A model generated the notes under the pieces. That model did no database searches. It was not told the origin of the DNA and worked only from the letters and a program-made list of their open reading frames with translations. Shown in pieces: positions 33,473 to 54,565 of a stretch of DNA of 64,000 nt. Every line of letters starts with the position of its first letter. The stretch's first letter is position 1. The stretch is taken from positions 27,079 through 91,078 of the forward strand of contig NZBZ01000004.1 of assembly GCA_002686365.1 (NCBI GenBank), given 5' to 3'. Both the position numbers and the translations under genes were made by a program. The stretch is from a bacterium. Its GTDB lineage: Bacteria; Patescibacteriota; Minisyncoccia; UBA6257; GWB1-50-10.

Positions 33473-33889
33473 ATGACTCCGAACGCCGGGCGTTCACAAC
33501 CGTCCTCAGAATCAGGCGACGTCGGATCCTCAAACGCCTTCATAGACTCTTGGTACGAGAAACTAGGGCAGCAAGTCCCCCGCCCCGTGCTGGACGACGC
33601 CCTAAACGCCATGTTTGATGGCGGCCACGAGGCCCGGATCTCCTTGTATGAGTTTCTAGATTCGGACGAATTACAGGCCAGCGAGAAAGCTGCACGCATG
33701 TGGTCGTTCTACGTCGAGTGGGCCAAAGTGCAGCGCGCTCTCAAACTCTTGCAGCTCGACAGGGCAGAAGACGCTCAGGAACTGCTAGATGATCCGCTCG
33801 TCTTTCAAGGGCGTGTGCCAGACTTACAGCTTCAGGTTGATAGCTACACCTTAGAAAGGATTTCGTTTATGGAAGTAGGTCAGTTCTAG
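33473..33889 (+). CDS. Hypothetical protein (GC-rich islet E)
   Basis: ATG with GAGGGAAGG SD; the ORF track extends upstream to 33293. Confidence 0.3.
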   Translation: MTPNAGRSQPSSESGDVGSSNAFIDSWYEKLGQQVPRPVLDDALNAMFDGGHEARISLYEFLDSDELQASEKAARMWSFYVEWAKVQRALKLLQLDRAEDAQELLDDPLVFQGRVPDLQLQVDSYTLERISFMEVGQF

Positions 33890-33958
33890 CTTTTAGCTTC
33901 ATTTCCGCCAGAGGCGGATCCGCCTTGGGCGGAAGCTATTAGCTTCATTAGCTTATAG
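33886..33958. repeat. AGCTTTTAGCTTCATT...AGCTTCATTAGCTTATAG repeat unit interrupted by two small GC hairpins (TCCGCCAGAGGCGGA, TCCGCCTTGGGCGGA)
   Basis: Member of the repeat family also at 42489, 45532, 46727, 48496, 52577 and 54403. Confidence 0.7.
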
Positions 33959-33962
33959 ATTT

Positions 33963-33977
33963 TATAATAGATGTATG
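33963..33977 (+). promoter_or_regulatory. TATAAT box 6 nt upstream of the ATG of the pilin gene (leaderless-type promoter)
   Basis: TTTTATAATAGATGTATG module conserved at 45570 and 46766. Confidence 0.5.
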
Positions 33978-34463
33978 TTTTTGTTTTTCCTAAAAGCTAA
34001 AAGCTATAAGCTAAAAGCTGAAAGGGGTTTTACTCTTTTAGAGGTGCTTGTCGTGTTAGCTATTATTGCTGTGGTTGGGGCAGTGGTTTTGATGCTGATA
34101 AATCCTTCAGCACGATTTGCAAAATCGAGAAATAATGAGCGAGCTGCGGATTTGAATGTGATTTTGAATGCAGTAAGTCAGAACATTGCTGATAACAAGG
34201 GGAGTTTTTCCTGCAGTGCTGGGTACTTGCCTTCTACTTCGACGCGGATGGCTGTTGGGTTGGGAGATTATGATATTGTTCCATGTCTTTTTCCAACATA
34301 TCTTGTTGTTGTGCCTTATGATCCGAATGGGGAGGGTGTATTTTATACAAGTACTTCGAGTTATGATTCGGGTTATGACATTTTTCAGGATTCAGTTACG
34401 GGTAGGGTTATAATAGAGGCGCCGCTTGCAGAGCTTAGTGAGACGATTTCTGCGACGAGGTAG
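33975..34463 (+). CDS. Type IV prepilin-like protein with 18-aa leader (MFLFFLKAKSYKLKAERG then FTLLEV)
   Basis: Class III signal: Gly then F-T-L-L-E-V plus hydrophobic helix; the leader is encoded by the AAAGCTATAAGCT repeat. Confidence 0.75.
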   Translation: MFLFFLKAKSYKLKAERGFTLLEVLVVLAIIAVVGAVVLMLINPSARFAKSRNNERAADLNVILNAVSQNIADNKGSFSCSAGYLPSTSTRMAVGLGDYDIVPCLFPTYLVVVPYDPNGEGVFYTSTSSYDSGYDIFQDSVTGRVIIEAPLAELSETISATR

Positions 34464-34516
34464 TTTTTCTGGTCTTCTTGTGCGCGCGGTTTTTTTGTTG
34501 TTTAATACTCATTGTT

Positions 34517-35260
34517 ATGGAAGATATAAAACATATTATTTTAGAGATTCGTGCCGGTACTGGAGGGGATGAGGCGGCTCTTTTTGCTGCAGATTTGGAG
34601 AGTATGTATCAGAAGTATGCGGAAGATAAGGAGTTGAAGTTTGTGAAACTTGATTCGAGCGCTAACTCATTGGGGGGATATAAGAGTTTTTCAGCCCGGA
34701 TTTCAGGAGAGGGAGCATATAAGGACTTTCAGCACGAATCAGGAGTTCATCGTGTTCAGAGGATTCCTGCCACAGAGAAGTCTGGACGAGTTCATACCTC
34801 AACTGCATCAGTTGCAATTTTGCCTGAGGTAGAGCCGGAGGAGATAGAGATTAATCAATCTGACTTGGAGATTTCGTTTTTTCGGTCTTCGGGTCCTGGA
34901 GGGCAGAATGTGAATAAGGTGGAGACTGCAGTGCGTATTCTGCATAAGCCGACTGGTCTTGTGGTTTCATCGCAGGCTGGTAGGGCGCAGCATGCAAATC
35001 GTGAGACTGCTTTGTCTATGCTTCGGGCAAAGCTCTATGAGGCAAAGCGTGAGCAGGAAGTAGGGTCTGTTTCAGAGCTTCGGCGGGAGCAGATTGGTTC
35101 TGCGGAGCGGGCAGAGAAGATTCGTACGTATAATATTCCGCAGGACAGGATTACAGATCATAGGATTGGGAAGAAGTGGGGTAATGCTACAAAGATTTTG
35201 GAAGGAGATTTTGGAAAGATTGTGAAGGGGTTTCAAAAGGCGGAAAAAGGTAAGAAGTAA
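34517..35260 (+). CDS. prfA: Peptide chain release factor 1-like protein lacking N-terminal domain 1
   Basis: IRAGTGGDEAALFA, PAT tripeptide (RF1-type), GGQ motif SGPGGQNVNK; only about 247 aa. Confidence 0.7.
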   Translation: MEDIKHIILEIRAGTGGDEAALFAADLESMYQKYAEDKELKFVKLDSSANSLGGYKSFSARISGEGAYKDFQHESGVHRVQRIPATEKSGRVHTSTASVAILPEVEPEEIEINQSDLEISFFRSSGPGGQNVNKVETAVRILHKPTGLVVSSQAGRAQHANRETALSMLRAKLYEAKREQEVGSVSELRREQIGSAERAEKIRTYNIPQDRITDHRIGKKWGNATKILEGDFGKIVKGFQKAEKGKK

Positions 35261-35290
35261 AAATCTCATCTTATAAGATGAGATTTTTTA

Positions 35291-36682
35291 CTATCCCTCC
35301 AGAATATCGATGTCGCGTTGGAATTTTTGGGCTTTTACTACAACTGGTTCTCCGTATACCCATCTATAGGTATACCATCTGCCTCCGGAGTAGTACTGGG
35401 CTGCGGCGCATCTCTCAGAGAGAATTTGAGCATCTACAATGTGTTTGTTTTCGCTCACATAGTTTCTGCAGGAGCGGGAGTTTAAGGAGTCTCTTAAATA
35501 GAGCGCTGTTGCTGAGAATGCGTCTGCATTGTTCCATGGGTTGGGCGGATTGTTTCCTGTTACTTTTTTAATTGAGGACTCATATAGTTTCCATGTAGAG
35601 GGAATGAATTGCGCTGGTCCCATTGCTCCTCCGTGATTTCCATCTCGAAGAATTGGACAGGAGACATACGCGGCGCGGGAGCTTGGATTAATATCTAGTC
35701 GTTTTAAGATGTCTTCGAAGACTGGAATGTCTTTTGAGCGCATAACAGTAGTGCCTGTTTGAGGGAGTACTTTGTCGTATCTGCACTGACCTACATTTCT
35801 GCCTAGGGCGGATTCTTGGTTTAGGATCGCTAGGATGAAGGCGGCGCGTACCCCTGTAGCTTTTTCCGCAAGTTTCGCATATTCGTATGCTTTTTCAAAT
35901 GTGAGTTCTCCGCCGCCCAGAAGCTGGAATATGCGTTTTCGGATTTCTGCCGCAGTTTCCTGTGACTCTTTTAGGAGTTTTTGGTATTTTGATTCTTCTC
36001 CCTCGGTTATTTCCAGAAGATCTTCTTTTTCGTTTTGTGTGTACTGGACATTTTTTTTCTGTCCCTGCTGGGCAGTCTTTAAATTTTTAGTGTCTTCTTT
36101 TTCGAGTACAAGCTCACTTTTTTTAGTGACTAGTTCTCCTCGGAGATTTACTATTTCCTGAAGAGCAAGGCGTAGGTTGTCTTGTACGCGCGCGATTTCG
36201 TTTATTTCTCCGAAGAAGTCTGAAATTTGTTCGTTTGCCAGAAGGATTTGGATAAGGCCCTGTCTGTCCTGTTCGTAGATTTGCTGGACAGCGCTGGCTA
36301 ATGCGTCTTTGTGGTCGTCTATTCTATTTTCAGTGTGGTTAATATTTTTTTGTGTTTCTATAATGTTCTGTCCAACTTTTTCGATTGTAATGTCAGTTGC
36401 CTGTATTTGGAGATTAAGTTTTTTAATTCTGGAGTTTAAGGAGTATATCTCGTTTTTTAGAGTTTTTCCCTGTGTTTGGTATGTTTCTACCTGCCCGCGC
36501 TGCTCTTCTATCTGTTCTTCCAATTCTTCGAGTTCACGCTCGAGTTCTTCTCTTGATCTATTGTCGTCCTCTGCTGCAATGGCTTGCTGCGCAGAAAGAT
36601 AGCTCGTTTGCGTAAAGACGATGGTTTGTATAAGTAGTATTGCTAGTATGAGGATTTTTAGTCTTTCCATCGGGTTTATCAT
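35291..36682 (-). CDS. Secreted coiled-coil protein with C-terminal lytic transglycosylase (MltB-like) domain
   Basis: Signal peptide, long heptad-rich region, C-terminal GGAMGPAQFIPSTW motif. Confidence 0.6.
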   Translation of the reverse strand: MINPMERLKILILAILLIQTIVFTQTSYLSAQQAIAAEDDNRSREELERELEELEEQIEEQRGQVETYQTQGKTLKNEIYSLNSRIKKLNLQIQATDITIEKVGQNIIETQKNINHTENRIDDHKDALASAVQQIYEQDRQGLIQILLANEQISDFFGEINEIARVQDNLRLALQEIVNLRGELVTKKSELVLEKEDTKNLKTAQQGQKKNVQYTQNEKEDLLEITEGEESKYQKLLKESQETAAEIRKRIFQLLGGGELTFEKAYEYAKLAEKATGVRAAFILAILNQESALGRNVGQCRYDKVLPQTGTTVMRSKDIPVFEDILKRLDINPSSRAAYVSCPILRDGNHGGAMGPAQFIPSTWKLYESSIKKVTGNNPPNPWNNADAFSATALYLRDSLNSRSCRNYVSENKHIVDAQILSERCAAAQYYSGGRWYTYRWVYGEPVVVKAQKFQRDIDILEG

Positions 36683-36754
36683 ATCACAAAACCCCCACGC
36701 CTATGCATAGGTGTGGGGGTGTACCTTTTTAGTTGTTGTGATTTTGGATGAGTT

Positions 36755-37486
36755 TTATTTCTTTTCTTCTTGTTTTTCTGCTTTTGCAGGCTGGCCTCCT
36801 TTATCTTCTACAGGCGTTGCTCCTTCGCCTTCCGCAGGTGTTTCTCCTTCGCCTTCTGCGGGCGCTTCTCCTTCACCTTCTGTTCCTTCTGCTCCTTCTT
36901 CACCTTCTGCTGGTTCCGGCTCTTCAATCTCTTCTTCTTTTGGTTCGGAGATTGTTGCGACTACTGTTTCAGGCTGAACGAGTACTTTTACATTTTTTGG
37001 AATTTCCAGATTGCTTACATGGAGTGTGTCTCCTGCCTCTTCCAGGCTCTCGAGGGATATTTCTATTTTATGCGGGAGATCTGCGGGCAGAGCTTCTATC
37101 TCAAGCTCTTCTGTAACTTTTACCAGAATGAGTCCAAGTTTAATTCCTGGAGCTTCACCTGTGAATTCAATGGGTATGTGAGTTTGAATTTTTTCATCCA
37201 TCCGGATTTGGTGCAGATCAACGGATAAATACTTTCCTGTTACAGGATTTTTCTGCACCTCTGCTATTAGCGTAGGGACTTTTTCTTTTCCTCCAATGGA
37301 AACTTGGATGATAGTGTGTTCCCCTGCTTCTTTGTAGACTTTGTCGAATTCTTTTTCAGAAATACTAATATGTTTATTTTTTTCTCCGTGTCCGTAGATT
37401 TCCGCAGGAATGAGCCCTTCTTTGCGGAGGGTTTTTACCTTTTTGCCAAGGACTGTGCGGGTTTGAATGTTTAGTTCAATTGCCAT
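36755..37486 (-). CDS. rplY: 50S ribosomal protein L25 / general stress protein Ctc with Glu/Pro/Ala-rich tail
   Basis: MAIELNIQTRTVLGKKVKTLRKEGLIPAEIYGHG start typical of L25. Confidence 0.85.
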   Translation of the reverse strand: MAIELNIQTRTVLGKKVKTLRKEGLIPAEIYGHGEKNKHISISEKEFDKVYKEAGEHTIIQVSIGGKEKVPTLIAEVQKNPVTGKYLSVDLHQIRMDEKIQTHIPIEFTGEAPGIKLGLILVKVTEELEIEALPADLPHKIEISLESLEEAGDTLHVSNLEIPKNVKVLVQPETVVATISEPKEEEIEEPEPAEGEEGAEGTEGEGEAPAEGEGETPAEGEGATPVEDKGGQPAKAEKQEEKK

Positions 37487-37496
37487 ATTTGTGGAA

Positions 37497-37778
37497 TTAT
37501 TCTTTTTCCTTCTTTTCTATCTTCTTTTTAGCTCTTGTTACTTTTTTGGTTTTCTTTTTCTGTATTTTCTCTTTGTTTGCTTTTGCAGCGCGCGCTTTGA
37601 AGCGTTCAGCTCGGCCTGCTGTGTCAATTAGGGTCTGCTTGCCTGTATAGAAGGGGTGGCAGTTAGAGCAGATTTCCACCTCTAGTTTTTCTTTTGTTCC
37701 TCCAATAGTAAAAGAGTGCCCGCATGCGCAGGTTGTTTTTGCTTTAGGATAGTAGGCTGGATGTATATCTTTTTTCAT
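37497..37778 (-). CDS. rpmE: 50S ribosomal protein L31
   Basis: [10 protein letters not shown] start; CxxC...CxxH zinc ribbon. Confidence 0.9.
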
Positions 37779-37797
37779 AACGTACTAGATTGTAGGG

Positions 37798-37817
37798 GTT
37801 TTTAGCTTGTTTGGCAA
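37798..37817 (+). repeat. Left copy of 20-bp perfect direct repeat GTTTTTAGCTTGTTTGGCAA flanking islet F
   Basis: Identical to 38652-38671. Confidence 0.85.
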
Positions 37818-37920
37818 CCCCTGTTTTCGGGTTTTGTAAAAAAATCCGCCTCGGCAGTGAGATGCTTTGGCGGGTGTACGATGTTTGCGGGGCGTGATGG
37901 CTCGGCCACGTTCGCGCGGG

Positions 37921-38571
37921 TCAGGCGGTGAGTGCGACCCAGACGTTGGGATCTTGTCCCCATTTGCCCGTAGGAGGATGCGCGACGATGACTTCCACGA
38001 GAGGCTTCCACTTCGTGAGCATGTCGGTGTTGTCATTTGCCGCACAGGCTATGAGTATTCGTAGGATGTAGTCGATTCCTCCCTCCAGACACTTCTGGGG
38101 CGTTTCGGGGAGGCCGATGTTCCTGACAGTGGAGCACACTTCTTGGGAGAAGGCTTCGTATGCCTCGTCGAGGCCTTTCGGCATCTCCAGGCCTTCGGCC
38201 AGCTTGTCGAGTATGATCGTAGATACGTACCCGTCGTCTGGAACGCTATCTACGAAGAGTGTCTCGAGCTCGCCTTTGGTGATAGGGCCGTATGCAAGGA
38301 GATTCTCCCACAGCTCTTCGTCGGCCCATTCGGGTCGCGTGTCAGGTACTGGATTGCTTGCCGAGAGATGAATTACTCTCTCGACTCTTTCTGTCAGCGT
38401 TCTCAGAAGTGCCTGTTGGATCTTCTTTGTGTCGCAGTCGTCTCCTGATGTCAGGCTCCATCCAGCTTCGGTTGCCTGGAGAATGGGCCTGATTGTTTCC
38501 TCCAAGGCATCAACTGTTGTCTCGTCCGTGTGTTCGAGCAGAGCGACTTGCAGACGTTCCCAGCTTTCCAT
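37921..38571 (-). CDS. Hypothetical protein (GC-rich islet F)
   Basis: ATG with AGGGAGG SD 9 nt upstream; 216 aa acidic. Confidence 0.45.
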   Translation of the reverse strand: MESWERLQVALLEHTDETTVDALEETIRPILQATEAGWSLTSGDDCDTKKIQQALLRTLTERVERVIHLSASNPVPDTRPEWADEELWENLLAYGPITKGELETLFVDSVPDDGYVSTIILDKLAEGLEMPKGLDEAYEAFSQEVCSTVRNIGLPETPQKCLEGGIDYILRILIACAANDNTDMLTKWKPLVEVIVAHPPTGKWGQDPNVWVALTA

Positions 38572-38651
38572 TGGGGAGCCTCCCTTTTGGCGGCGCTGGC
38601 GTTTAGGGCGTCACTGTGTTTTTTGTACTTGTTTTTTACTTGTGTGTCAAT

Positions 38652-38671
38652 GTTTTTAGCTTGTTTGGCAA
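38652..38671 (+). repeat. Right copy of 20-bp perfect direct repeat GTTTTTAGCTTGTTTGGCAA
   Basis: Identical to 37798-37817; brackets an 834-bp GC-rich insert. Confidence 0.85.
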
Positions 38672-38688
38672 GGTTTTGTTGACAATCA

Positions 38689-38720
38689 GGACCCCTTCCT
38701 TATAATAAGGGCGAGCTTAG
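38689..38720 (+). promoter_or_regulatory. Consensus sigma70-type rRNA promoter TTGACA-17 nt-TATAAT
   Basis: TTGACAATCAGGACCCCTTCCTTATAATAAGG read directly, about 110 nt upstream of the 16S gene. Confidence 0.6.
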
Positions 38721-38823
38721 AGAAGCTGGTTTTTTTCTGCCCTGACAGATGTTTGACATATGTAGTAGTAGGTAATTAACAGAGGTGTTAATAATAGAGA
38801 ATTTTTTTAGTTGTCCCAATTTA

Positions 38824-40312
<1,489 letters not shown>

Positions 40313-40645: not shown

Positions 40646-40701
40646 TCTTGGCATTGTCTTTGTGTGGAGCTTCAATAGTAAAAGGTGATATACTACTGGT
40701 A

Positions 40702-41898: not shown

Positions 41899-42519
41899 TT
41901 GGTCGGCGTTTTCTTTTCTAGTAAAATAGAGCTTATGACTTTATCCTTTCTAACGGGGTTTACCATTTTGTTTTTGACCGTAGGTCTGTTTTTTCAGATA
42001 TTTTTGAGAGGCAGGATTCGGTTTTTTCAGTATCTATTTTTTATAGCTCTTTTGGGAATTTTGGGGGTTTATCTGTATCTTGTGTATGGACAGTATGTGC
42101 TCTGGCGTGATTCAGGTCCTCCGTCCAGCTTTTTTGTTCCTCCGCATAGAAGCGCTTTGTATGTTTTTGGGTATCATTTTACTCGTTTTGGTCTGCAGTA
42201 TCTTATTTCTTTAGGGGTTTCGATTTTGTTTTTCTTTCTTTCTTTGCGTCTGAATCAAAGATTTGGAGAGAGATTTTTTGAAAGAGAAGAGTTGTGGCTT
42301 GGGGCATTTTCTATTTTTCTTTTAGGGAATCCAGTATGGAATTACGCATGGATTTATTACCTTTTACTTCTAGGTCTTTTGTCAGTCTTGGGGTCTCTTT
42401 TTGCGCAGTATGTTTTTCGTATTCGTGAGAGATTTCCTTTGTACTGGTTATGGATTCCGTGTGCTCTTGGAGTTATACTTATACAAAAGCTTATAGCTTA
42501 TGGCTTCATTAGCTTTTAG
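41899..42519 (+). CDS. Polytopic membrane protein, unknown function
   Basis: 5-6 TM helices; its C-terminus KLIAYGFISF is encoded by the AGCTTATAGCTTATGGCTTCATTAGCTTTTAG repeat. Confidence 0.4.
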   Translation: MVGVFFSSKIELMTLSFLTGFTILFLTVGLFFQIFLRGRIRFFQYLFFIALLGILGVYLYLVYGQYVLWRDSGPPSSFFVPPHRSALYVFGYHFTRFGLQYLISLGVSILFFFLSLRLNQRFGERFFEREELWLGAFSIFLLGNPVWNYAWIYYLLLLGLLSVLGSLFAQYVFRIRERFPLYWLWIPCALGVILIQKLIAYGFISF

Positions 42520-42588
42520 CTTTTTGTTATCTTGTCGAATTTTTTCCGTAAAGCTAACAAGCTATAAGCTAACACACTAGAAGCTAAT
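42489..42588. repeat. AGCTTATAGCTTATGGCTTCATTAGCTTTTAGC ... AAGCTAACAAGCTATAAGCTAACACACTAGAAGCTAAT repeat block
   Basis: Family member; overlaps the stop of 41899..42519 and precedes pilB. Confidence 0.7.
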
Positions 42589-45531: not shown

Positions 45532-45566
45532 CTAGCTTATAGCTTTTAGCTTCATTAGCTTTTAGG
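45532..45566. repeat. TCTAGCTTATAGCTTTTAGCTTCATTAGCTTTTAG repeat followed by the TTTTATAAT-ATG module
   Basis: Family member. Confidence 0.75.
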
Positions 45567-45581
45567 TTTTATAATAGATGT

Positions 45582-46724
45582 ATGTTTTTATCTTTCTTGA
45601 AAGTTATAAAGACTTGCTTGCCGGTAGGCGGGGCAGGTAGGTATAAGTTACGAACTTGTAAGGGCTTTACTCTTGTTGAGGTGATGATTGCTCTTGCTGT
45701 GCTTGTAGCCCTTTCAACTTTTGGGTTTACAAGCTTGTTTGGTATTCGTGAGTCCAGGAGTGTTCGAAGCGCTGCCCAGGGAATTAATTCTGTACTGCAG
45801 GATGCCAGAGAGCGTTCTCTTACTCAGGCAGACGGCATGAGCTGGGGAGTGCGTTTTCTTCATCCTTCAGAGGATGTTTATGAGTATCAGGAGTTTTTTG
45901 ATGCTCCGTTTGGAGTACACAAGGCGCATTTTTTGTCGAACGGCGTGCAGTTTTCTGATTTGCCTTTAGGAGATACATTTGATGTTGCGTTTCAGTCGGT
46001 GAACGGAATGTCGTCGTTGGATAAAATTATCTCAGTTGCCAGCTCTGGAAAGGGAGGAGTTGTAGGAGATGTAATTCTTCGTTCTGTTGGTTTTATTTCT
46101 CCTCGTCTTGAGAAGGGAGTTGCGGGGTATTGGCATTTTGATCAAGAGAATGGTTCAGTGGCCTATGATGCGAGTGGTCTTGAAGGAAATGGAAGTATTT
46201 CCGGCGCAGTGTGGGATGGGCCATGTAGGGCTGGGGGATGCCTTCGATTTGATGGGGCAGATGATTATGTTTCTGGATCTTTTCCTCACACATTTTCTTC
46301 TTTTTCTATTTTGGGATGGGTTCGATTGGATGGAGATGGTGGTAATAAGGGGGCTCTTTGGTCTGGGTATGATGGTTCTTTGGGGCGGATATACGCACGA
46401 GTTTTGGGCTCATCCCGGAAGCCAAGCTTTTATACGAATCCTGGCGGCGGTGAGGGGACGACTGCTGCTATGACAGCTCTTTCAGATGGATGGCATCATC
46501 TTGCGTATGTATATGATGGTATCTCAAAGAAGATTTATATAGATGGCGTTGAGGATGTTTCAGAGGATAGCCCTGATCTTTTATTTCCTCTTGATTCTTT
46601 TGAGATTGGGAGGAGTGAGCAGGATGGGGCTAATGTTCTTCGGGGATGGATTGATGAGCCTCGTGTGTACGACAGAGCGCTTTCCTCAGAAGAGATTTGG
46701 GATCGGTATAATGATTTACGTTAA
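45582..46724 (+). CDS. Prepilin-type protein (pseudopilin) with C-terminal LamG/concanavalin-like lectin domain
   Basis: Leader MFLSFLKVIKTCLPVGGAGRYKLRTCKG then FTLVEVMIALAVL; LamG-like motifs LRFDGADDYV...GWHHLAYVYDG...KIYIDGV...RVYDRALS. Confidence 0.7.
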   Translation: MFLSFLKVIKTCLPVGGAGRYKLRTCKGFTLVEVMIALAVLVALSTFGFTSLFGIRESRSVRSAAQGINSVLQDARERSLTQADGMSWGVRFLHPSEDVYEYQEFFDAPFGVHKAHFLSNGVQFSDLPLGDTFDVAFQSVNGMSSLDKIISVASSGKGGVVGDVILRSVGFISPRLEKGVAGYWHFDQENGSVAYDASGLEGNGSISGAVWDGPCRAGGCLRFDGADDYVSGSFPHTFSSFSILGWVRLDGDGGNKGALWSGYDGSLGRIYARVLGSSRKPSFYTNPGGGEGTTAAMTALSDGWHHLAYVYDGISKKIYIDGVEDVSEDSPDLLFPLDSFEIGRSEQDGANVLRGWIDEPRVYDRALSSEEIWDRYNDLR

Positions 46725-46726
46725 TT

Positions 46727-46762
46727 TATAGCTTATGGCTTTTAGCTTCATTAGCTTTTAGG
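46727..46762. repeat. TAGCTTATGGCTTTTAGCTTCATTAGCTTTTAGG repeat plus TTTTATAAT module
   Basis: Family member. Confidence 0.75.
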
Positions 46763-46779
46763 TTTTATAATAAATGTGT

Positions 46780-48042
46780 ATGTTTTCGTTTTTTCTAAAA
46801 GCTATTACCTATAAGCTAAAAGCTAGGTCCGGTCAGTCTCTTATTGAGATTATTGTTGGGCTTGCGATTGGCGCGGTTCTTATTGGCGCTGCTGTGGTAG
46901 GTATTACATTTGTGCTTCGTTCTGGATCTTTGAATCAGCAGTCTCGAACTGCCTCAGGAGTTAGCCGGGCTCTTCTTCAAGAGGTACGGTCTGTATCGGA
47001 TTCAAGCTGGCTGGATGTTTATAATCTTGATAGAGGAATTTCTCATTATATTGTTGCAAGCGGTACTTCTCTTTCTGCGTTTGAAGGGAAGGAGGGTGTT
47101 GTAGTTAACGCGCCTCAGGACGAGCTTCAAGCTCATTGGAATTTTGATGAGTCAGTTGAGAATATTGTTCACAATTCCGTTGCTTCAGGTGTTCGCGGAG
47201 ATATTATCGGTACAATGCCTGTTTTTTCGTGCCGTGTGGGGACGTGTCGTTCGTTTGAGGGCTCTCAATATATGTTTTTTGGAGATGATTCGTCTTTAGA
47301 TCTTCAGGCTGATTTTTCAGTGGCATTGTGGATGTATCCGGATGCTGTTCCTGTTTCTAATGTCGGGCTTGTGAGTAAGGAGGGGTCTCCGTATGGCTAT
47401 GGCATTACATATGACTATGATGTGGATGGGCAGGTTCGATTTTTTGTTCGGGATGAGGGAAGCAGTGTGCAGGCGCCAATGCCGCCTCAGGGCTGGCATC
47501 ATGTTGTTGGAGTATTTGGCAGCTCCCCAAGTTCGTTTCTTAATCTTTACGTAGATGGTCTTCTTGCGGCGACAAGCACATTAGGATTTTCTGCGTCGGG
47601 CGCTTCTGGAGATTTTTTTGTTGGTCGGCATAGTTCCGGTTTTTTTGATGGAATGATTGATGATGTTCGCGTGTATTCTAGGGCGTTTGACGCGAATGAT
47701 GTTTGGTCTCTTTATAATGGAAGAGTTTTTGTTCGTTCTTTTTATGTGGAGGACGTGTTTCGGGATTCTGTTGGAGAAATTGTGTCTTCAGGAGGAAGTC
47801 TTGATCCATCTACTTTGAAAGTTACGATTGTTGTTGAGTGGAATCCTGTTGGATCTGCGGCAGCGCGTCATGAGGTGGAGGATTATTTTACTCGATGGAG
47901 GAATGATGTATTTCATCAGAGTGATTGGTCAGAGGGGCCGGAGTCTTTAGTTCCTATTCCAGAGCCGGGAGGCGGATTTTCTAATTCATCGAATATTCGA
48001 TTTTCTCCCGGGTCTATTCAGATTGATGAGTTAAATGAGTGA
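46780..48042 (+). CDS. Prepilin-type protein (pseudopilin) with LamG-like lectin domain, second paralogue
   Basis: Leader MFSFFLKAITYKLKARSG then QSLIEIIVGLAIGAVL; LamG-like motifs SFEGSQYMFFGDD...GWHHVVGVF...LYVDGL...VRVYSRAF; ATG 46780 preferred (7 nt after TATAAT) over ORF-track 46774. Confidence 0.7.
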   Translation: MFSFFLKAITYKLKARSGQSLIEIIVGLAIGAVLIGAAVVGITFVLRSGSLNQQSRTASGVSRALLQEVRSVSDSSWLDVYNLDRGISHYIVASGTSLSAFEGKEGVVVNAPQDELQAHWNFDESVENIVHNSVASGVRGDIIGTMPVFSCRVGTCRSFEGSQYMFFGDDSSLDLQADFSVALWMYPDAVPVSNVGLVSKEGSPYGYGITYDYDVDGQVRFFVRDEGSSVQAPMPPQGWHHVVGVFGSSPSSFLNLYVDGLLAATSTLGFSASGASGDFFVGRHSSGFFDGMIDDVRVYSRAFDANDVWSLYNGRVFVRSFYVEDVFRDSVGEIVSSGGSLDPSTLKVTIVVEWNPVGSAAARHEVEDYFTRWRNDVFHQSDWSEGPESLVPIPEPGGGFSNSSNIRFSPGSIQIDELNE

Positions 48043-48061
48043 TTTATAGTACAATACACTT

Positions 48062-48493
48062 ATGGTAAAGGTTCAGCATTTTACAGAGAATTTTGAGCAG
48101 AATGTTCAGCATGCTGGGGAGCGTGTTCAGGAGTATAAAGAGAGTCCTGATTTTCGAGAGGCGCCAAAACGGGAAGTTGTGAAGAAGTCTCTTCGGCAAG
48201 AGAAGGCGCCTTTGCCTCCACCGCCCAGTGCTTCTCAGGATGAGGACGATGATGTAAAGAAGGAGAAGGATTCTCCGGAGAATATGAATTCATTTCTTCC
48301 TGATTATTTCAATGGTGGAGATGCAGAGGGTATGGGTGAGGCAGTAGGACGACTTGCTGAGACAGCTCTTCATGGGAACCTTGAGAAGTCTCTTAAGGAT
48401 GCGCGAAAGCTTACTCCTTTTCTTGAAGATGCGTTTCATGATTCGTTGGTTGATAAGTTATTGCCGGAGATGAAGAGGCGGGGAATTATTTGA
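48062..48493 (+). CDS. Acidic hypothetical protein
   Basis: 143 aa, Glu/Asp/Lys-rich. Confidence 0.4.
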   Translation: MVKVQHFTENFEQNVQHAGERVQEYKESPDFREAPKREVVKKSLRQEKAPLPPPPSASQDEDDDVKKEKDSPENMNSFLPDYFNGGDAEGMGEAVGRLAETALHGNLEKSLKDARKLTPFLEDAFHDSLVDKLLPEMKRRGII

Positions 48494-48495
48494 CG

Positions 48496-48531
48496 AGCTT
48501 TTAGCTTCTAGCTTCATTAGCTTTTAGGGGA
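48496..48531. repeat. GAGCTTTTAGCTTCTAGCTTCATTAGCTTTTAG repeat
   Basis: Family member. Confidence 0.75.
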
Positions 48532-48541
48532 GAATCTCTTT

Positions 48542-48574
48542 TAGCTATAAGCTATAAGCTATAAGCTATAAGCT
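48542..48574. repeat. (AGCTATA)x5 heptanucleotide tandem repeat ending 5 nt before the ATG of the ATPase gene
   Basis: Read directly. Confidence 0.85.
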
Positions 48575-48579
48575 ATTTT

Positions 48580-50940: not shown

Positions 50941-50954
50941 GATCGCGTAGACAC

Positions 50955-51075
50955 GGAATTTTTAATTTTCAATTATCAATTTTTACCGGCTAACTCAATG
51001 TTCACTTTTGACTGTTTGAAAATTGTTGCATTGAACATTGATTGAAAATTGGACATTGGAAATTGGTCATTAGTA
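50955..51075. repeat. AATTTTCAATTATCAATTTTT ... ATTGAAAATTGGACATTGGAAATTGGTCATT repeat block
   Basis: Shares GAAATTGGACATT with 2080-2092. Confidence 0.55.
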
Positions 51076-51084
51076 ATATTTATT

Positions 51085-52110
51085 ATGTCATCATCTGAAC
51101 TTCGAAAAGACATTGTATCAGGAGAGTGGGTTGTGCTTGCGCCTGGGAGGGCCAAGAGGCCTGATGCGTTTATAAAAAAGATTAAACGTGAGCGGGTTTC
51201 AAAGAAGGATTGCCCGTTTGAGGATCCGCAGACTACAAATCATGGTGACCCTCTTTTGGTATATCCTAAAGACGCGCTTCATTCGACTTCTCGGCTTAAT
51301 AAGCGTGACAAGTGGAGGATACAGATTATTCGGAACAAGTATCCCGCATTTCGGCATGAGCGGAAGTGTATCCCTGCAATTTCTCGCGGTCCGTATGAGG
51401 TGATGGAGGGGATTGGATATCATCATCTTCTGCTTACCAGAGATCATCATAGGAACTACCCGCGTCTTTCTTCTTCTGAAGCAGCATTGGTGTTTTTATC
51501 TTTTCAGGAGCATTATAAGGATCTTGCGCGGGATAAGTGTGTGAAGTATGTTTCTTTTTTCCATAACTGGGGTCCTAAGGCAGGAGCTTCGGTTTATCAT
51601 CCTCACTATCAGATTATGGCTCTTCCTATGATTCCGCCGGATGTTGGCAGATCTCTTAAGGGTTCACAGCAATATTATAATAAGCATAAGAAGTGTGTGC
51701 ATTGCACCATTTTAGGCTGGGAGCGGAAGGAGAAGAAGCGGATTATATATGAGACTAAGAATGTGATTGCGTTTATTCCTTACATTTCACGGGAGCCGTT
51801 TGAGGCGCGAATTTTTCCCAAGAAACATTCTTCGTATTTTGAAGATGCTTCTTCTAAGATTGTGGAGGAGGTGTCGCATGCTTTGCGGCTTGTGCTTCAG
51901 AGGATGGAGAGGAGATTGAAGGATCCGGATTATAATTTTTTTATTCATTCTGCGCCTACGCACAGACGGGATAAGTTCGCTCATTATCATTGGCACATTG
52001 AGGTTTTGCCAAAGATGAGTGTCTATGCTGGATTTGAGCTGGGGACGGGGATTGAGGTGACTGTTGTGGATCCGGATGATGCGGCTCGATTATTAAAAAT
52101 AAAAAAATAG
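51085..52110 (+). CDS. galT: Galactose-1-phosphate uridylyltransferase-like HIT-superfamily nucleotidyltransferase
   Basis: ELRKDIVSGEWVVLAPGRAKRP N-terminal signature; Cys/His zinc site; YHPHYQIMAL and HYHWHIEVLPK histidine motifs. Confidence 0.65.
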   Translation: MSSSELRKDIVSGEWVVLAPGRAKRPDAFIKKIKRERVSKKDCPFEDPQTTNHGDPLLVYPKDALHSTSRLNKRDKWRIQIIRNKYPAFRHERKCIPAISRGPYEVMEGIGYHHLLLTRDHHRNYPRLSSSEAALVFLSFQEHYKDLARDKCVKYVSFFHNWGPKAGASVYHPHYQIMALPMIPPDVGRSLKGSQQYYNKHKKCVHCTILGWERKEKKRIIYETKNVIAFIPYISREPFEARIFPKKHSSYFEDASSKIVEEVSHALRLVLQRMERRLKDPDYNFFIHSAPTHRRDKFAHYHWHIEVLPKMSVYAGFELGTGIEVTVVDPDDAARLLKIKK

Positions 52111-52126
52111 TAATACTGATTACTAG

Positions 52127-52579
52127 ATGACTATCTATTGGATACTAACTGTTTTAATTGCGGCATTGCCTGTGGCAGAGCTTCGTGGGGCAATACCTTT
52201 GGCTGTTTTTGTATGGAATATTTCTCCGCTTACTGCTTTTTTTCTTGCTGTTATTGGAAATTTTTTGATAGTTATTCCGCTGCTATGGTTTTGGCATTTT
52301 GCTGTTCACAGACTCGCAAAGAGATATCATTTTGTGCATCGTTGTAAGGAGTGGATGTTTGATAGGACGCATCGCAGGCATGGCGGGAAGTTTGAGCTTT
52401 TGAAGGAGTTTGCATTGTTTTTCTTAGTCGCAATTCCTTTGCCTTTTACCGGAGCATGGACTGGAACTGTTGCTGCTTATCTTTTTGGCGTGCCGTTTTG
52501 GAGGGCAGTTTTATGGATTGGTCTTGGAATTATTTTCGCAGGAATTTTGGTTGGTGTGGGGGTGGGGCTTTTTGTGTAG
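52127..52579 (+). CDS. COG2426-like small polytopic membrane protein
   Basis: PVAELRGAIPLAV motif, four TM helices. Confidence 0.5.
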   Translation: MTIYWILTVLIAALPVAELRGAIPLAVFVWNISPLTAFFLAVIGNFLIVIPLLWFWHFAVHRLAKRYHFVHRCKEWMFDRTHRRHGGKFELLKEFALFFLVAIPLPFTGAWTGTVAAYLFGVPFWRAVLWIGLGIIFAGILVGVGVGLFV

Positions 52580-52610
52580 CTTATAGCTTTTAGCTTCATT
52601 AGCTTTTAGC
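52577..52610. repeat. TAGCTTATAGCTTTTAGCTTCATTAGCTTTTAGC repeat
   Basis: Family member, overlaps the stop of the preceding gene. Confidence 0.75.
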
Positions 52611-52645
52611 ACGAAAAAAACCGCTTAATGCGGGTAGTAGTTGGC

Positions 52646-52687
52646 GGACGCCTTTTCTCTCGGATGAGTAGGCGTCCGCCAATGCGT
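52646..52687. promoter_or_regulatory. 12-bp-arm inverted repeat TTGGCGGACGCC...GGCGTCCGCCAA at the left edge of islet G
   Basis: Read directly. Confidence 0.4.
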
Positions 52688-53113
52688 TCTCTAGCTGGGT
52701 CTTGGGTGATGCGTGCATGCCTTTCACCGGTGTTTGCACGCCCTCTTTGTGAGCTGGGCAAGCACCGCAGTTTTCCCCCGTTTCCCGGCACTCTACAGCG
52801 CCCTCGTTGATACCCACCTACACTCTCTCCGTAGAGAGAGGAGGTGGGTATCAGGACGTGTCGTGCTTGTCAAAGCAGATGCGCATTTCTGCGCTTAACT
52901 CCTTGTGGCTGGGTCTGACGTAGTCCCTTGTGGGTTTTATCTCAGGCCACAGTAGGTAACTAGCTAGGAGTGTATCACAATTTTTGTGTTTTGCAATTTC
53001 ATTGATTTTGGGGAGTTTGTGGAGATTGACAGAGGTTTTATGGGGTGATATATAGAAGTTAGGTCTTGAGTCGTGTCTTGAAGTCTGGGGCCTCTGGATT
53101 GGGAAGGAAGGAC

Positions 53114-53350
53114 ATGCCAGACACATCTTTTGGCGGTGACAATTATGGCGAGTGCTCTGACTGTGGCGATGAGGCCACTTGCAGTCATTGGGGACCCCTT
53201 GCTCCTCTGGGAGAGGTGTGGCGTTTCTGCGAGCACTGCTTTGGCTGGCGCAGGCATGAGCACGATGAGCATGATGGGGGCGGTGAGGAGTTTTCTCCCA
53301 AGCCCCTTGGTCATACATGGCCTGAACAGGATCCACCGCAGGCGTCTTAG
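53114..53350 (+). CDS. Small Cys/His-rich hypothetical protein (islet G)
   Basis: GGAAGGAAGG SD; CSDCGDEATCSHW...CEHCFGW zinc-ribbon-like spacing; several overlapping ORFs in this GC-rich stretch make the call uncertain. Confidence 0.3.
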   Translation: MPDTSFGGDNYGECSDCGDEATCSHWGPLAPLGEVWRFCEHCFGWRRHEHDEHDGGGEEFSPKPLGHTWPEQDPPQAS

Positions 53351-53408
53351 CAGCTTAGCATTGCAGCAGCAGTGTGAGGCGCGCGATTAGAGAGGATGTG
53401 AGAGGCTT

Positions 53409-53702
53409 ATGTCAAAATCTCTTACTGGGTGGGAAGTTCACGCTGGCAGGAGACGAGGCAGTGGTGTGGTTTTCAGGATTTGGATTCCACGTGCGCGGCA
53501 GTACGCAACCTCGGCTCTGTCTGAGTGCAGCGTACGGGCCTGGATCGAACGGGATTTCACTGAGCGTGACGTGTTATGGTGGGACATCAATTCCCTGGTG
53601 GATAACGCTAGGGCGTTTGGAGCCTCTTGGCAGCCGAGCGAGAGACGTAACAAGCGTCGCATGGGTCGTTGGGCGAGGGAGTTGCGACGAGTAGCGGCAT
53701 AA
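53409..53702 (+). CDS. Hypothetical basic protein (islet G)
   Basis: GAGAGG SD 8 nt upstream of ATG. Confidence 0.3.
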   Translation: MSKSLTGWEVHAGRRRGSGVVFRIWIPRARQYATSALSECSVRAWIERDFTERDVLWWDINSLVDNARAFGASWQPSERRNKRRMGRWARELRRVAA

Positions 53703-53794
53703 CCCCGGATTCATCAACCATAAGAGTTCTTTCGAGGCAGTCAAGCATGGCTGTCTTTTTTCTTTTATGACTGGAACTTGTTATTATAAGTAGT

Positions 53795-54565
53795 ATGAAA
53801 TTAGTGATAGCAAACTGGAAACTTAATCCTTCTACTGAAGATGAAGCTATAGAGCTTGCAAAGAAAGAGGATTTGGATGGAGTGATTCTAATGCCTCCTT
53901 TGTCTTTTTTGGCTGGAGTTGGGGATGTTTTGAAGAAGGCAAAACTTGGATCGCAGGATGTGTTTTATGAAGATGAGGGGGCGTACACTGGAGAGGTGTC
54001 TTCAGAGCAGCTGGAGTCAGTTGGGGTGAAGTATGTGCTTGTGGGTCATTCAGAGAGGCGTGCAATGGGTGAGACAGAGACGCAAATTAATAAGAAGGTA
54101 CGAGCTGCTTTGAAAGAGGGGCTTATAGTTGTGTTGTGTGTTGGGGAGAAGGAGCGAAAGGATATTACTGGAGCAAAAGATTTTGTGAAAGCACAGTTGG
54201 AGAGTGCGTTGGATAAGGTAGCTTCTAGCCAGCTGGCGGGTCGGGACGATAAGGTAGCCCCTCGCTGCGCTCGGGACGATTGTGACGCGGGACGCGTCAT
54301 AATCGCATACGAGCCAGTGTGGGCGATTTCATCGCATAGTGGGGGAGCGTCAGATACTCCAGAAGATGCTGCAGAAATGATTGGTTCTATAAAGGAGTTC
54401 CTAGAAGCTAAAAGCTATAAGCTAGAAGCTATTTTATATGGCGGGTCAGTGAATGGGGAAGATGCGAAAGGATTTTTAGATAAGGAGGAAATTGATGGAG
54501 TGTTGGTGGGAAGTGCGAGTTTGAAGTCAGAGGAGTTTAAAAAGATTGTAGAGACAGCATCATGA
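53795..54565 (+). CDS. tpiA: Triosephosphate isomerase with GC-rich in-frame insertion
   Basis: ANWKLN, VGHSERR, IIAYEPVWAI, YGGSV motifs; about 17 extra residues (RDDKVAPRCARDDCDAG) before AYEPVW relative to E. coli TIM; EAKSYKLEA segment is encoded by the AGCTATAAGCT repeat. Confidence 0.85.
   Translation: MKLVIANWKLNPSTEDEAIELAKKEDLDGVILMPPLSFLAGVGDVLKKAKLGSQDVFYEDEGAYTGEVSSEQLESVGVKYVLVGHSERRAMGETETQINKKVRAALKEGLIVVLCVGEKERKDITGAKDFVKAQLESALDKVASSQLAGRDDKVAPRCARDDCDAGRVIIAYEPVWAISSHSGGASDTPEDAAEMIGSIKEFLEAKSYKLEAILYGGSVNGEDAKGFLDKEEIDGVLVGSASLKSEEFKKIVETAS

What the first reader, a model, noticed from the sequence alone, without database searches (positions are those of the whole stretch)
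33886..54430. Genome-specific repeat family AGCTTTTAGCTTCATTAGC / AGCTATAAGCT concentrated in the pilus cluster and read in frame by several genes
Near-identical 30-40-bp units occur at 33886, 42489, 45532, 46727, 48496 and 52577, plus fragments at 33991 and 54403. Three pilin-like genes (33975, 45582, 46780) are each preceded by the same roughly 60-bp module: repeat, then TTTTATAAT, then ATG. Their unusual long leaders (MFLFFLKAKSYKLKA…, MFLSFLKVIK…YKLRT…, MFSFFLKAITYKLKA…) are encoded by the repeat itself. The C-terminus KLIAYGFISF of the membrane protein 41899..42519 and the EAKSYKLEA segment of tpiA are also repeat-encoded. This suggests either cassette-style duplication of pilin genes together with their promoter, or a REP-like element that doubles as promoter and leader.
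Basis: seen in the sequence. Interest (0 to 1): 0.55.

Follow-up and report, generated by a model that had tools for sequence, protein, structure and literature searches.

The report
Heptad-built palindromic repeats at gene junctions
A short hairpin-forming repeat made of 7- and 9-letter units fills the gaps between genes in this tiny marine bacterium and in related uncultured bacteria, and in three pilus genes it now encodes the start of the protein. It is a new example of a poorly understood kind of bacterial repeat, not a pilus-specific gene cassette.

Summary
The repeats are real and sit at the stated coordinates. They have two orientations. A T-rich arm (TAGCTTn units every 7 or 9 nt) starts at or just after a stop codon. 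Its reverse complement, an A-rich arm (AAGCTAn), ends 5-7 nt before the next start codon or lies inside a prepilin leader. "Genome-specific" is wrong: the same 24-mer occurs in 20 other Patescibacteria assemblies and 51 metagenome contigs, mostly beside ribosomal-protein and other housekeeping genes. Locally the pilus cluster is enriched (5 of 9 junctions against 2-3 of about 67). Relatives with the same gene order have 0-29 nt junctions and short pilin leaders, so the window's modules are additions, not duplicated pilin genes. Five assemblies of this population carry two alleles that differ by one 7-nt unit in a pilin leader; both keep the reading frame through twin ATGs. Period-7 arrays of many sequences are about tenfold over-represented in these genomes, which lack the anti-Shine-Dalgarno tail. 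Best reading: a REP/MITE/STRR-like heptad palindrome that folds into an intercistronic hairpin bracketing stop and start. A pilin sub-variant adds TATAAT-N6-ATG. Its identity as a repeat family is well supported; its mechanism is inferred.

The parts
33884..33903 (+). Outer part of a T-rich arm. Its first TAG (33887-33889) is the stop codon of ORF 33293-33889.
33903..33934 (.). GC-rich palindrome of about 30 nt (CCGCCAGAGGCGG / CCGCCTTGGGCGG) nested exactly between two units of the T-arm
   Evidence: (I12)
33934..33959 (+). Inner part of the T-rich arm (AGCTATT AGCTTCATT AGCTTAT AG)
33963..33977 (+). Loop: TATAAT (33963-33968), then twin ATGs 4 nt apart (33971 and 33975). The second is in frame here; the first is in frame in the one-heptad-shorter allele.
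33989..34019 (+). A-rich arm (CTAAAAG x4) translated as the ..LKAKSYKLKA.. part of the prepilin leader of ORF 33975-34463. This is the site of the 7-nt length polymorphism.
42488..42521 (+). T-rich arm read through by ORF 41899-42519 (C-terminus ..KLIAYGFISF*), which ends at the last TAG of the arm
42551..42588 (+). A-rich arm ending 5 nt before the pilB start (42591)
45533..45566 (+). T-rich arm 3 nt after the pilC stop
45570..45584 (+). Loop: TATAAT (45570-45575) and twin ATGs (45578, 45582)
45597..45656 (+). Degenerate A-arm inside the leader of pilin ORF 45582-46724, split by a GC-rich insertion of about 30 nt (about 45608-45637)
46729..46762 (+). T-rich arm 5 nt after the stop of pilin 45582-46724
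46766..46782 (+). Loop: TATAAT (46766-46771) and in-frame ATGs at 46774 and 46780
46795..46825 (+). A-rich arm translated as ..LKAITYKLKA.. in the leader of pilin ORF 46774-48042
48495..48528 (+). T-rich arm 2 nt after the stop of ORF 48062-48493
48543..48577 (+). A-rich arm, about five perfect AGCTATA units, ending 5 nt before the start of the VirD4/TraG-like gene (48580)
52577..52610 (+). Single T-rich arm whose first TAG is the stop of ORF 52127-52579. It is followed by a terminator-like hairpin for the opposite strand.
54404..54434 (+). Single A-rich arm read in frame inside tpiA (..EAKSYKLEA..). It does not lengthen the protein.

Best explanation
The repeats are copies of a small non-coding palindromic element built from 7-nt units (sometimes 9-nt) around the self-complementary core AGCT. 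The left arm is (TAGCTTn)3-5 and the right arm is its reverse complement (AAGCTAn)3-5, with 6-66 nt between them. It is one of several heptad-repeat families that populate gene junctions in this Parcubacteria-type (Patescibacteria) bacterium, which lacks the anti-Shine-Dalgarno tail, and in its relatives.

Shown:
- The family is shared by many genomes.
- The arms always have the order T-arm then A-arm.
- The outer end of each arm abuts a coding boundary: the stop codon is often the arm's own TAG, and the start codon lies 5-7 nt after the A-arm.
- The copies in the pilus cluster are additions to junctions that are 0-29 nt long in relatives.
- Unit number varies by whole heptads among assemblies of one natural population.

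Inferred:
- Transcribed as part of an operon, a full copy folds into a long A-U-rich hairpin whose base contains or touches the upstream stop codon and ends a few nt before the downstream start.
- The hairpin therefore ties downstream initiation to upstream termination: a terminating ribosome opens the stem, or re-initiates across its base. Alternatively it is a double-strand RNA processing site. This would matter in an organism that cannot use Shine-Dalgarno pairing.
- Arrays grow and shrink by slippage. AGCT plus 3 nt is the smallest self-folding unit.

In the three pilin genes a sub-variant with TATAAT-N6-ATG in its loop has replaced the short native leader. It supplies the start codon. The only open frame of the A-arm (..LKAxSYKLKA..) is tolerated because the leader is cut off at the conserved G|F(Q) site. 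It probably also provides a promoter for a leaderless pilin transcript.
For: Reality and anatomy.

Sharing across genomes: the exact 24-mer occurs in 40 stretches from 20 assemblies and in 51 metagenome contigs. The source itself is a Tara Oceans MAG that was not among them.

Polarity: 35 T-arm-then-A-arm pairs within 90 nt against 0 A-then-T pairs.

Abutment: from the end of the stop codon to the first AGCT is -2 to +8 nt in 37 of 45 cases, with the mode at -2 (TAG shared with the arm). From the last AGCT to the start codon is 5-7 nt in 19 of 31 cases.

Hairpins: 12 elements gave z-scores of -0.8 to -8.9. In 19 complete elements the main stem begins -3 to +5 nt from the stop in 16 and ends 0-7 nt before the start in 13.

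Location inside operons: elements lie between consecutive ribosomal-protein genes (S19, L22, S3; S3, L14, L24, SecY).

Insertion status: orthologous pilC-pilin1, pilin1-pilin2 and hyp-VirD4 junctions are 0-29 nt long and lack the element. Orthologous leaders are MNYGKGG|F, MRG|F and MRKFWKDKRG|Q. The membrane protein's C-terminus is extended into the T-arm.

Slippage: there is a 7-nt indel within 4.47 kb of 99.7% identity. The two alleles occur in 3 and 2 assemblies. A second 7-nt indel occurs in another heptad family.

General heptad excess: 96 non-AGCT period-7 arrays against 32 of period 6 and 10 of period 8.

No anti-SD; PMC9297842.

Constraint: arms are 93-100% identical where adjacent coding DNA is 65-86% identical.

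Pilin module.
Against: There is no RNA evidence, so the hairpin and the coupling or processing role are predictions.

Cognate arms are not more complementary or more mirror-symmetric than non-cognate arms, although ascertainment on one canonical arm biases that test. About 115 of 190 arrays are single arms, which cannot form the hairpin.

No transposase-bearing parent and no clear target-site duplication were found, so 'mobile' is unproven.

Identical 33-mers in genomes from sea, groundwater and lakes are hard to explain by slippage alone. They hint at a sequence-specific partner that was not identified.

The promoter in the pilin loop has no recognisable -35.
Confidence: 0.55

Rival explanations
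1. DNA-level binding array. The AGCT hexamer arrays are operator or architectural sites for a conserved sequence-specific DNA-binding protein, or an RNA-binding oligomer in the manner of HutP or TRAP sites (analogy from my own knowledge). The protein would act at gene boundaries, and the hairpin potential would be a by-product.
For: Identical arms occur in diverged genomes, and arms are more conserved than flanking coding DNA. Many arms are single. There is no arm-arm covariation. Unit spacing is regular at 7 or 9 nt.
Against: No candidate protein was found. A 7-bp spacing puts successive sites on different faces of the helix. Several other heptad families with unrelated cores (AATT, CATG, TCGA, ACGAAT) show the same junction architecture in the same genomes, which argues against one specific binder. 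The positions between consecutive ribosomal-protein genes and the exact abutment to stop and start codons are not what operators usually show.
Confidence: 0.15
2. Promoter arrays for leaderless mRNAs. The A-arm is a run of -10-like hexamers (TAWAAG) whose last copy fires a transcript that begins at or next to the ATG. The T-arm is the same signal on the other strand.
For: The organism lacks the anti-SD tail and its genes lack SD motifs. TANNNT peaks 6 nt before start codons in 9 of 53 genes. The A-arm ends at a tightly fixed 5-7 nt before the ATG. The pilin loops carry a perfect TATAAT 6 nt before the ATG.
Against: The last TAWAAG lies 7-9 nt from the ATG, which is 1-3 nt too far for a start at the A of the ATG. 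T-arms would then drive antisense transcription into upstream genes. A promoter before each consecutive ribosomal-protein gene is unusual. The sigma-70 scan shows no enrichment and does not call these sites.
Confidence: 0.15
3. Contingency (phase-variation) switch for pili. Gain or loss of 7-nt units in the leader-coding A-arm shifts the reading frame and turns pilin genes on and off, as CTCTT repeats do in the Neisseria opa signal-peptide region (own knowledge).
For: A 7-nt indel sits exactly in the leader-coding array among near-identical assemblies, and the two alleles are found in 3 and 2 assemblies. The long allele occurs on both linked haplotypes, which suggests recurrence or recombination. 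The twin ATGs give ON in two phases and OFF in the third (read from the sequence).
Against: Both observed alleles are ON. The units are imperfect copies, which slip poorly. Most copies are non-coding and lie next to housekeeping genes. Polymorphism was seen at only one pilin.
Confidence: 0.1
4. Cassette-style duplication of pilin genes together with their promoter.
For: Three pilin genes share a module of about 95 nt, including the loop. The pilus cluster is locally enriched.
Against: The similarity stops at the G|F site and the mature parts differ. The orthologous pilins are present in the same order in relatives, without the module. The same arms occur at many non-pilin junctions here and elsewhere.
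Confidence: 0.04

Closest known systems
Intergenic heptameric tandem repeats: Xanthomonas GGGAATC, Nostoc GGGGA(T/C)T, and the three tandemly repeated heptanucleotides of Calothrix PCC7601 (PMC4692102; known as cyanobacterial STRR, a name I add from my own knowledge)
   Same: The period is 7 nt and the repeats are overwhelmingly intergenic. They lie within 0-50 bp of ORF ends and sometimes overlap the stop codon. Polarity is the same: one strand sits next to stops and the complementary strand next to starts. Some occur as inverted pairs. The repeats were not found tied to cell-surface genes or to IS elements, and their function is unknown.
   Different: Those units are G-rich and were studied as quadruplex formers. 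Here the units are A/T-rich around a 4-nt palindrome, mix 7- and 9-nt spacings, are usually arranged as two inverted arms, are shared between distantly related genomes, and are translated in several genes.
REP / BIME / REPIN elements of proteobacteria (own knowledge; PMC3733652 was seen in a search listing but not read)
   Same: They are short extragenic repeats at operon junctions and gene ends, often within a few nt of stop codons. They fold as RNA hairpins, and pairs occur in inverted orientation.
   Different: A single arm here is not itself a palindrome. There is no GTAG/CGTC tag and no RAYT transposase was seen. The arms are internally tandem-repetitive.
MITEs, for example Neisseria Correia elements and Rickettsia palindromic elements (own knowledge; reviews listed)
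   Same: Terminal inverted repeats enclose a short centre, the size is 50-120 nt, and orthologous sites differ in presence or absence. Some copies carry promoter-like boxes. Some are read in frame by host genes, as RPEs are.
   Different: No autonomous parent and no demonstrable target duplication were found. Arm length varies by whole units. Single arms are commoner than complete elements. The tpiA copy does not lengthen the protein.
Simple-sequence contingency loci, for example the opa CTCTT repeats in a signal-peptide region and the 7-bp repeats in the hmw promoters (own knowledge)
   Same: A repeat unit that is not a multiple of 3 lies in the coding region of a cleavable leader of a surface-structure gene, with natural length polymorphism.
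   Different: The units are imperfect, both alleles seen are in frame, and most family members are non-coding.

Membership tests
Intergenic heptameric tandem repeats (STRR-like) | Tandem units with a 7-nt period | tested here: met
   AGCT-to-AGCT spacing of 7 occurs 26 times and spacing of 9 occurs 7 times. TRF reports period 7 for every arm.
Intergenic heptameric tandem repeats (STRR-like) | Intergenic position close to ORF ends, with strand polarity | tested here: met
   compare PMC4692102 section 13
Intergenic heptameric tandem repeats (STRR-like) | Over-representation of period 7 relative to neighbouring periods | tested here: met
   138 arrays of period 7 against 33 of period 6 and 12 of period 8 in 575 kb of loci; 96 of the period-7 arrays remain without AGCT
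MITE | Terminal inverted repeats flanking a short non-coding centre | tested here: met
MITE | Target-site duplication | tested here: inconclusive
   By my own count of the flanks printed, outer ends read CTAGCTT.../...AAGCTAG in about 10 of 17 cases. No empty site close enough in sequence was available; the nearest relatives have 62-70% PilC identity.
MITE | Autonomous IS with the same ends | tested here: not met
   No arm has its inner end facing a gene in about 650 kb of loci. This covers the sampled DNA only.
MITE | Presence/absence polymorphism at orthologous sites | tested here: met
REP/BIME | Each unit is a 20-40 nt imperfect palindrome with a GTAG/CGTC tag | tested here: not met
   A single arm is T-rich or A-rich and is not self-complementary beyond the AGCT cores. 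No tag is present.
REP/BIME | Associated RAYT (TnpA-REP) gene | not tested
   The whole genome is not available. None was seen among the Pfam-scanned ORFs of the window.
Contingency SSR | Unit length not divisible by 3, inside the 5' coding region, with length variation between strains | tested here: met
Contingency SSR | Length variants that switch the gene off | tested here: not met
   Both observed alleles are in frame through alternative ATGs. Out-of-frame alleles could not be looked for.
Type IV prepilin (class III signal peptide) | G at -1, F or Q at +1, E at +5, hydrophobic helix, N_methyl motif | tested here: met
   Pfam PF07963 matches at residues 14-39, 24-46 and 16-40 of the three ORFs; translations
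Known RNA families (Rfam) | Match to a curated covariance model | tested here: not met
   Only the 16S rRNA was found in the window.

The most novel reading that the evidence does not exclude
In Parcubacteria that have lost the anti-Shine-Dalgarno tail, heptad palindromes may be a functional, lineage-wide substitute for SD-guided internal initiation. The hairpin would place the upstream stop next to the downstream start so that the terminating ribosome opens the stem or re-initiates. Alternatively a double-strand RNase would cut the stem to release near-leaderless cistrons. A dedicated factor that recognises the AGCT arrays would explain why identical arms persist in genomes whose proteins are only 60-65% identical.
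Probability: 0.12. Interest if true: 0.85.

Novelty: new variant of a known kind. Interest (0 to 1): 0.55.

Why it matters
If the reading is right, three points follow.

- It describes a previously unreported repeat family, and a general excess of 7-nt arrays, in the Candidate Phyla Radiation, a very large and almost uncultured part of bacterial diversity.
- It shows how a non-coding repeat can be recruited as the start codon and cleavable leader of surface-filament proteins.
- It gives a concrete, testable handle on how genes inside operons are translated in bacteria whose ribosomes cannot use Shine-Dalgarno pairing. That loss is on record in the literature (PMC9297842), which leaves its functional context unclear.

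The 7-nt length alleles in a natural marine population also offer a direct way to ask whether these bacteria phase-vary their pili, which are generally thought to be important for CPR bacteria (own knowledge).

Tried and rejected
- **Rfam.** A gathering-threshold scan of the window, and an E-value scan of 52500-53900, gave nothing for the repeats.
- **Literature by sequence.** A search for the exact repeat strings gave only chance primer matches.
- **CRISPR-like reading.** The three copies at 56-nt period in L004, L005 and L025 are tandem duplications of T-arm plus loop directly after a gene. They have no variable spacers.
- **New Shine-Dalgarno.** The 16S tail here is GAUUAAUUCGUUU. The AGCT arms are not complementary to it, although a different repeat (ACGAAT) is. 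I did not pursue this.
- **Three-frame stop signal.** The T-arm does give TAG in all three frames by its end, but other heptad families at the same kind of site contain no stop codon. I rejected this as a general explanation.
- **General composition rule.** A T-rich-then-A-rich pattern is absent from the 29 intergenic regions without AGCT arrays.
- **Arm-arm covariation.** Local-alignment and unit-register tests were both negative. Both are biased, because loci were selected on one canonical arm.
- **tpiA copy as an RPE-like insertion.** Solved TIMs are 4-5 residues longer at that place, so I rejected this.
- **Sigma-70 consensus scan.** It showed no enrichment and did not call the pilin modules.
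- **Source genome.** I could not find the whole source genome to map all copies. Only about 10 kb more on the left and about 7 kb more on the right could be read.

Full report

Yes. The 19-mer AGCTTTTAGCTTCATTAGC occurs 7 times (up to 3 mismatches), all on the + strand, against 0.05 expected. AGCTATAAGCT occurs 28 times (up to 1 mismatch) against 1.16 expected. AGCT tetramers are spaced by exactly 7 nt 26 times and by 9 nt 7 times.

The sequences show two kinds of array that are reverse complements of each other.
- The T-rich arm has the consensus TAGCTTA TAGCTTT TAGCTTCAT TAGCTTT TAG. It lies at 33884/33934, 42488, 45533, 46729, 48495 and 52577.
- The A-rich arm has the form CTAAAAG CTATAAG CTAAAAG CT. 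It lies at 33989, 42551, 46795, 48543 and 54404, with a degenerate copy at about 45597-45656.

A profile built from the T-arm finds no further copy anywhere else in the 64 kb.

**2. Gene context in the window.**

Pfam annotation and Rfam give this order:
- hypothetical gene
- [element] pilin 33975
- prfB
- (opposite strand) SLT, L25, hypothetical gene
- 16S rRNA (38823-40312)
- response regulator
- pilin 41285
- membrane protein 41899
- [element] pilB
- pilC
- [element] pilin+LamG 45582
- [element] pilin+LamG 46774
- hypothetical gene
- [element] VirD4/TraG-like ATPase
- GalT/HIT
- small exporter
- [T-arm only]
- tpiA [A-arm inside]

The T-arm always starts at or a few nt after a stop codon; twice its first TAG is the stop. 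The A-arm ends 5 nt before the pilB and VirD4-like starts.

In the three pilin genes the A-arm lies after the ATG and is translated. The leaders are:
- MFLFFLKAKSYKLKAERG|FTLLE
- MFLSFLKVIK..YKLRTCKG|FTLVE
- MFSFFLKAITYKLKARSG|QSLIE

All three keep the prepilin cleavage signature. They share a module of about 95 nt: T-arm, (G/A)TTTTATAAT, ATG after 6 nt (8 nt at 46780), then A-arm.

**3. The family is not genome-specific.**

An exact degenerate 24-mer (GCTNNTRGCTTCATTAGCTTWTAG; chance expectation below one hit by my own estimate) matched 40 stretches in 20 species-representative assemblies. Most are labelled Patescibacteria, including Saccharibacteria, Moraniibacteriota, Azambacteria, Vogelbacteria and Paceibacterota. 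Three are labelled Bdellovibrionales or Gammaproteobacteria; I did not verify any of these labels. The same pattern matched 51 metagenome contigs.

The source itself is a Tara Oceans MAG. The exact PilC is 'CL629_01255 [bacterium]'. Its nearest PilC relatives (62-70% identity) carry names such as Jorgensenbacteria, Brennerbacteria, Paceibacterota and Minisyncoccia.

Because the search required one canonical arm, the apparent invariance of the TCATT unit is partly ascertainment. Other arms in the same loci carry TCGTT, GCGTT, TCTCT and similar units.

**4. Rules that hold across about 600 kb of loci.**

- *Order.* A T-arm is followed by an A-arm within 90 nt 35 times; the reverse order never occurs. 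Because the reverse complement of T...A is again T...A, this holds for genes on either strand.
- *Outer ends abut genes.* From the end of the stop codon to the first AGCT is -2 to +8 nt in 37 of 45 cases, with the mode at -2 (TAG shared with the arm). From the last AGCT to the start codon is 5-7 nt in 19 of 31 cases.
- *Single arms obey the same rule.* About 115 of the 190 arrays are single. Single T-arms follow stops and are often followed in turn by an ordinary intrinsic terminator. Single A-arms precede starts.
- *Downstream genes are mostly housekeeping.* They include S10, S19, L22, S3, L14, L24, SecY, Adk, RpoA, L13, L10, S12, NusA, NusG, EF-P, LysRS, SerRS, TatD, MurB and ParB. They also include pilB (twice) and pilins. 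In two contigs consecutive ribosomal-protein genes are each separated by an element (L047, L091).
- *The A-arm has one open frame.* Its 9-nt unit AGCTAATGA carries an ATG in that frame. TatD orthologues apparently start there (MKLKAKSY-LIDTHAH), and an Azambacteria contig has two pilins with ..KAISYKLKAERG|F leaders.

**5. Insertions, not duplicated genes.**

Four orthologous pilus loci have the same gene order (L25 - 16S - RR - pilin - membrane protein - pilB - pilC - pilin+LamG - pilin+LamG ... VirD4-like). Their pilC-pilin1, pilin1-pilin2 and hyp-VirD4 junctions are 0-29 nt long and lack the AGCT element. Their leaders are short: MNYGKGG|F, MRG|F and MRKFWKDKRG|Q.

The window's membrane protein is about 7 residues longer than the L096 orthologue, because it reads into the T-arm. 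One relative (L095) has an AGCT element at the same membrane-protein/pilB junction.

Two relatives (L094 and L095) have a different heptad family (GAATTAT) at the pilC-pilin junction, including the start codon. The closest relative (L098) has a third family there (GACCTAG / TAGGA). So 'some heptad array at this junction' recurs, while the sequence family changes.

Within the 84 kb readable for the source strain, the element occupies 5 of 9 pilus-gene junctions against 2-3 of about 67 others (p about 1e-4). One more T-arm follows rpsF just beyond the window.

**6. The arrays are unstable in whole units.**

A Tara contig that is 99.73% identical over 4.47 kb lacks exactly one heptad in the leader-coding A-arm of pilin 33975. 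The reading frame is rescued by an ATG 4 nt upstream (ATGTATG), which gives MYVFVFPKSYKLKAERG|F.

Among five assemblies, three carry the long allele and two the short one. The long allele occurs on both linked haplotypes. A second one-heptad difference was seen in an unrelated TTCCAAT array.

Period-7 arrays in general are about tenfold above the trend set by periods 6 and 8, even after removing AGCT arrays. Many of their units consist of a 4-nt palindrome (AGCT, AATT, CATG) plus 3 nt. This is the smallest unit that can fold back on itself, which suggests hairpin-assisted slippage as the generating process (inference).

**7. What it may do.**

The 16S tail reads GAUUAAUUCGUUU, with no CCUCC, and genes have no SD motif. 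Two relatives are the same. Loss of the motif in about half of Parcubacteria is on record (PMC9297842).

Full elements fold into long hairpins, with z-scores down to -8.9. In 19 complete elements the stem starts -3 to +5 nt from the stop in 16 and ends 0-7 nt before the start in 13. A ribosome terminating at that stop must open the base of the stem next to the start codon. I therefore favour an intercistronic role: coupling of initiation to upstream termination, or a double-strand processing site.

This would also explain why such insertions are tolerated inside tightly coupled operons. It is an inference. Arm-arm covariation was not detected, and single arms need another explanation, such as decay products, a 3'-UTR or 5'-leader role, or a binding factor.

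Arms are 93-100% identical between orthologous sites whose flanking genes are 65-86% identical. Either selection or continual replacement from a conserved source is therefore at work.

For the pilin sub-variant the loop holds a perfect TATAAT 6 nt (8 nt at 46780) before the ATG. In this window TANNNT peaks at that distance in 9 of 53 genes, so a leaderless pilin transcript is plausible. A sigma-70 scan does not call the site.

**8. Comparison with known elements.**

The nearest described phenomenon is the intergenic heptameric repeats of Xanthomonas and Nostoc/Calothrix. They share the 7-nt period, the closeness to ORF ends with the same strand polarity, the overlap with stop codons, occasional inverted pairs, the lack of any tie found to cell-surface genes or IS elements, and an unknown function (PMC4692102).

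REP/BIME elements and MITEs (Correia, RPE) are functional and structural analogues. Defining features of both, namely the palindromic tagged unit with RAYT and the parent IS with target duplication, were not met or could not be shown. The leader-coding copy resembles contingency repeats, but no OFF allele was seen.

**9. Verdict.**

'Genome-specific' and 'pilin cassette' are wrong. 'REP-like element that supplies the start and leader, and perhaps a promoter' is right for the pilin copies.

I am confident that the family is a new A/T-rich, palindromic variant of intergenic heptad repeats shared among Patescibacteria (about 0.8). The proposed RNA-level mechanism is moderately likely (about 0.35) and untested.

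Noticed in passing
window 33903-33934 and about 45608-45637: Two GC-rich palindromic insertions of about 30 nt are nested inside AGCT arms. One sits exactly between two units of a T-arm. The other sits in the A-arm of the pilin 45582 leader, where it is read in frame (..KTCLPVGGAG..). They may represent a second, smaller inserted-element family.
   Followed up: partly
window 1979-2094, 14863-14886, 50957-51071, 14171-14266, 20704-20784, 28305-28403, 57512-57543: Other short-period arrays lie at gene junctions. They include TTCCAAT x5 followed by TTGAAAA x4; AATTTTC and ATTGAAA; the 8-mer ATATCGAG (one array lies inside ORF 20139-21254); ACGAAT repeats followed by inverted ATTCGT repeats; and TAGGACT before rpoB. 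Period 7 is about tenfold over-represented in all related loci.
   Followed up: partly
window 40300-40312 (also L096 and L097): The 16S rRNA 3' tail is GAUUAAUUCGUUU, with no CCUCC. The ACGAAT repeat at 28305-28360 is complementary to AUUCGU in this tail, and the GAATTAA/GAATTAT heptads of relatives would be complementary to a tail of this type (UUAAUUC); the 16S tails of those two relatives (L094, L095) were not read. This may be a coincidence or an altered SD-like pairing.
   Followed up: no
window 34478-35260: The prfB-like ORF is only 260 aa, and the Pfam PCRF match begins at model position 96. The N-terminal domain therefore seems to be missing or mis-called. The gene starts 15 nt after the pilin 33975 stop.
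   Followed up: no
window 54222-54296: tpiA carries an extra GC-rich segment of about 10 aa (..SSQLAGRDDKVAPRCARDDCDAGR..) with repeated CGGGACGAT, relative to solved TIM structures.
   Followed up: no
window 52600-53790: About 1.2 kb has no confident gene and no Rfam match, but it has strong hairpins (for example 52808-52853, 21 nt arms, 90% complementary) and a terminator-like hairpin facing the minus strand at 52612-52632.
   Followed up: partly
window 6000-10200: A GC-rich stretch (0.49-0.53, against about 0.44 elsewhere) contains only short overlapping ORFs on both strands and has no rRNA match. One assembly's contig (L093) breaks at about 7240.
   Followed up: no
L004:12-210, L005:3141-3324, L025:1095-1348: In two related MAGs the T-arm plus a loop segment (a 56-nt unit) is tandemly repeated three to five times directly after what I took by eye to be a CHAP-domain gene (not checked with Pfam). 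An ACGAAT-type repeat and a terminator follow, and contigs break inside the array.
   Followed up: partly
whole window: No tRNA gene was found in 64 kb, and the 16S rRNA gene has no 23S gene next to it.
   Followed up: no
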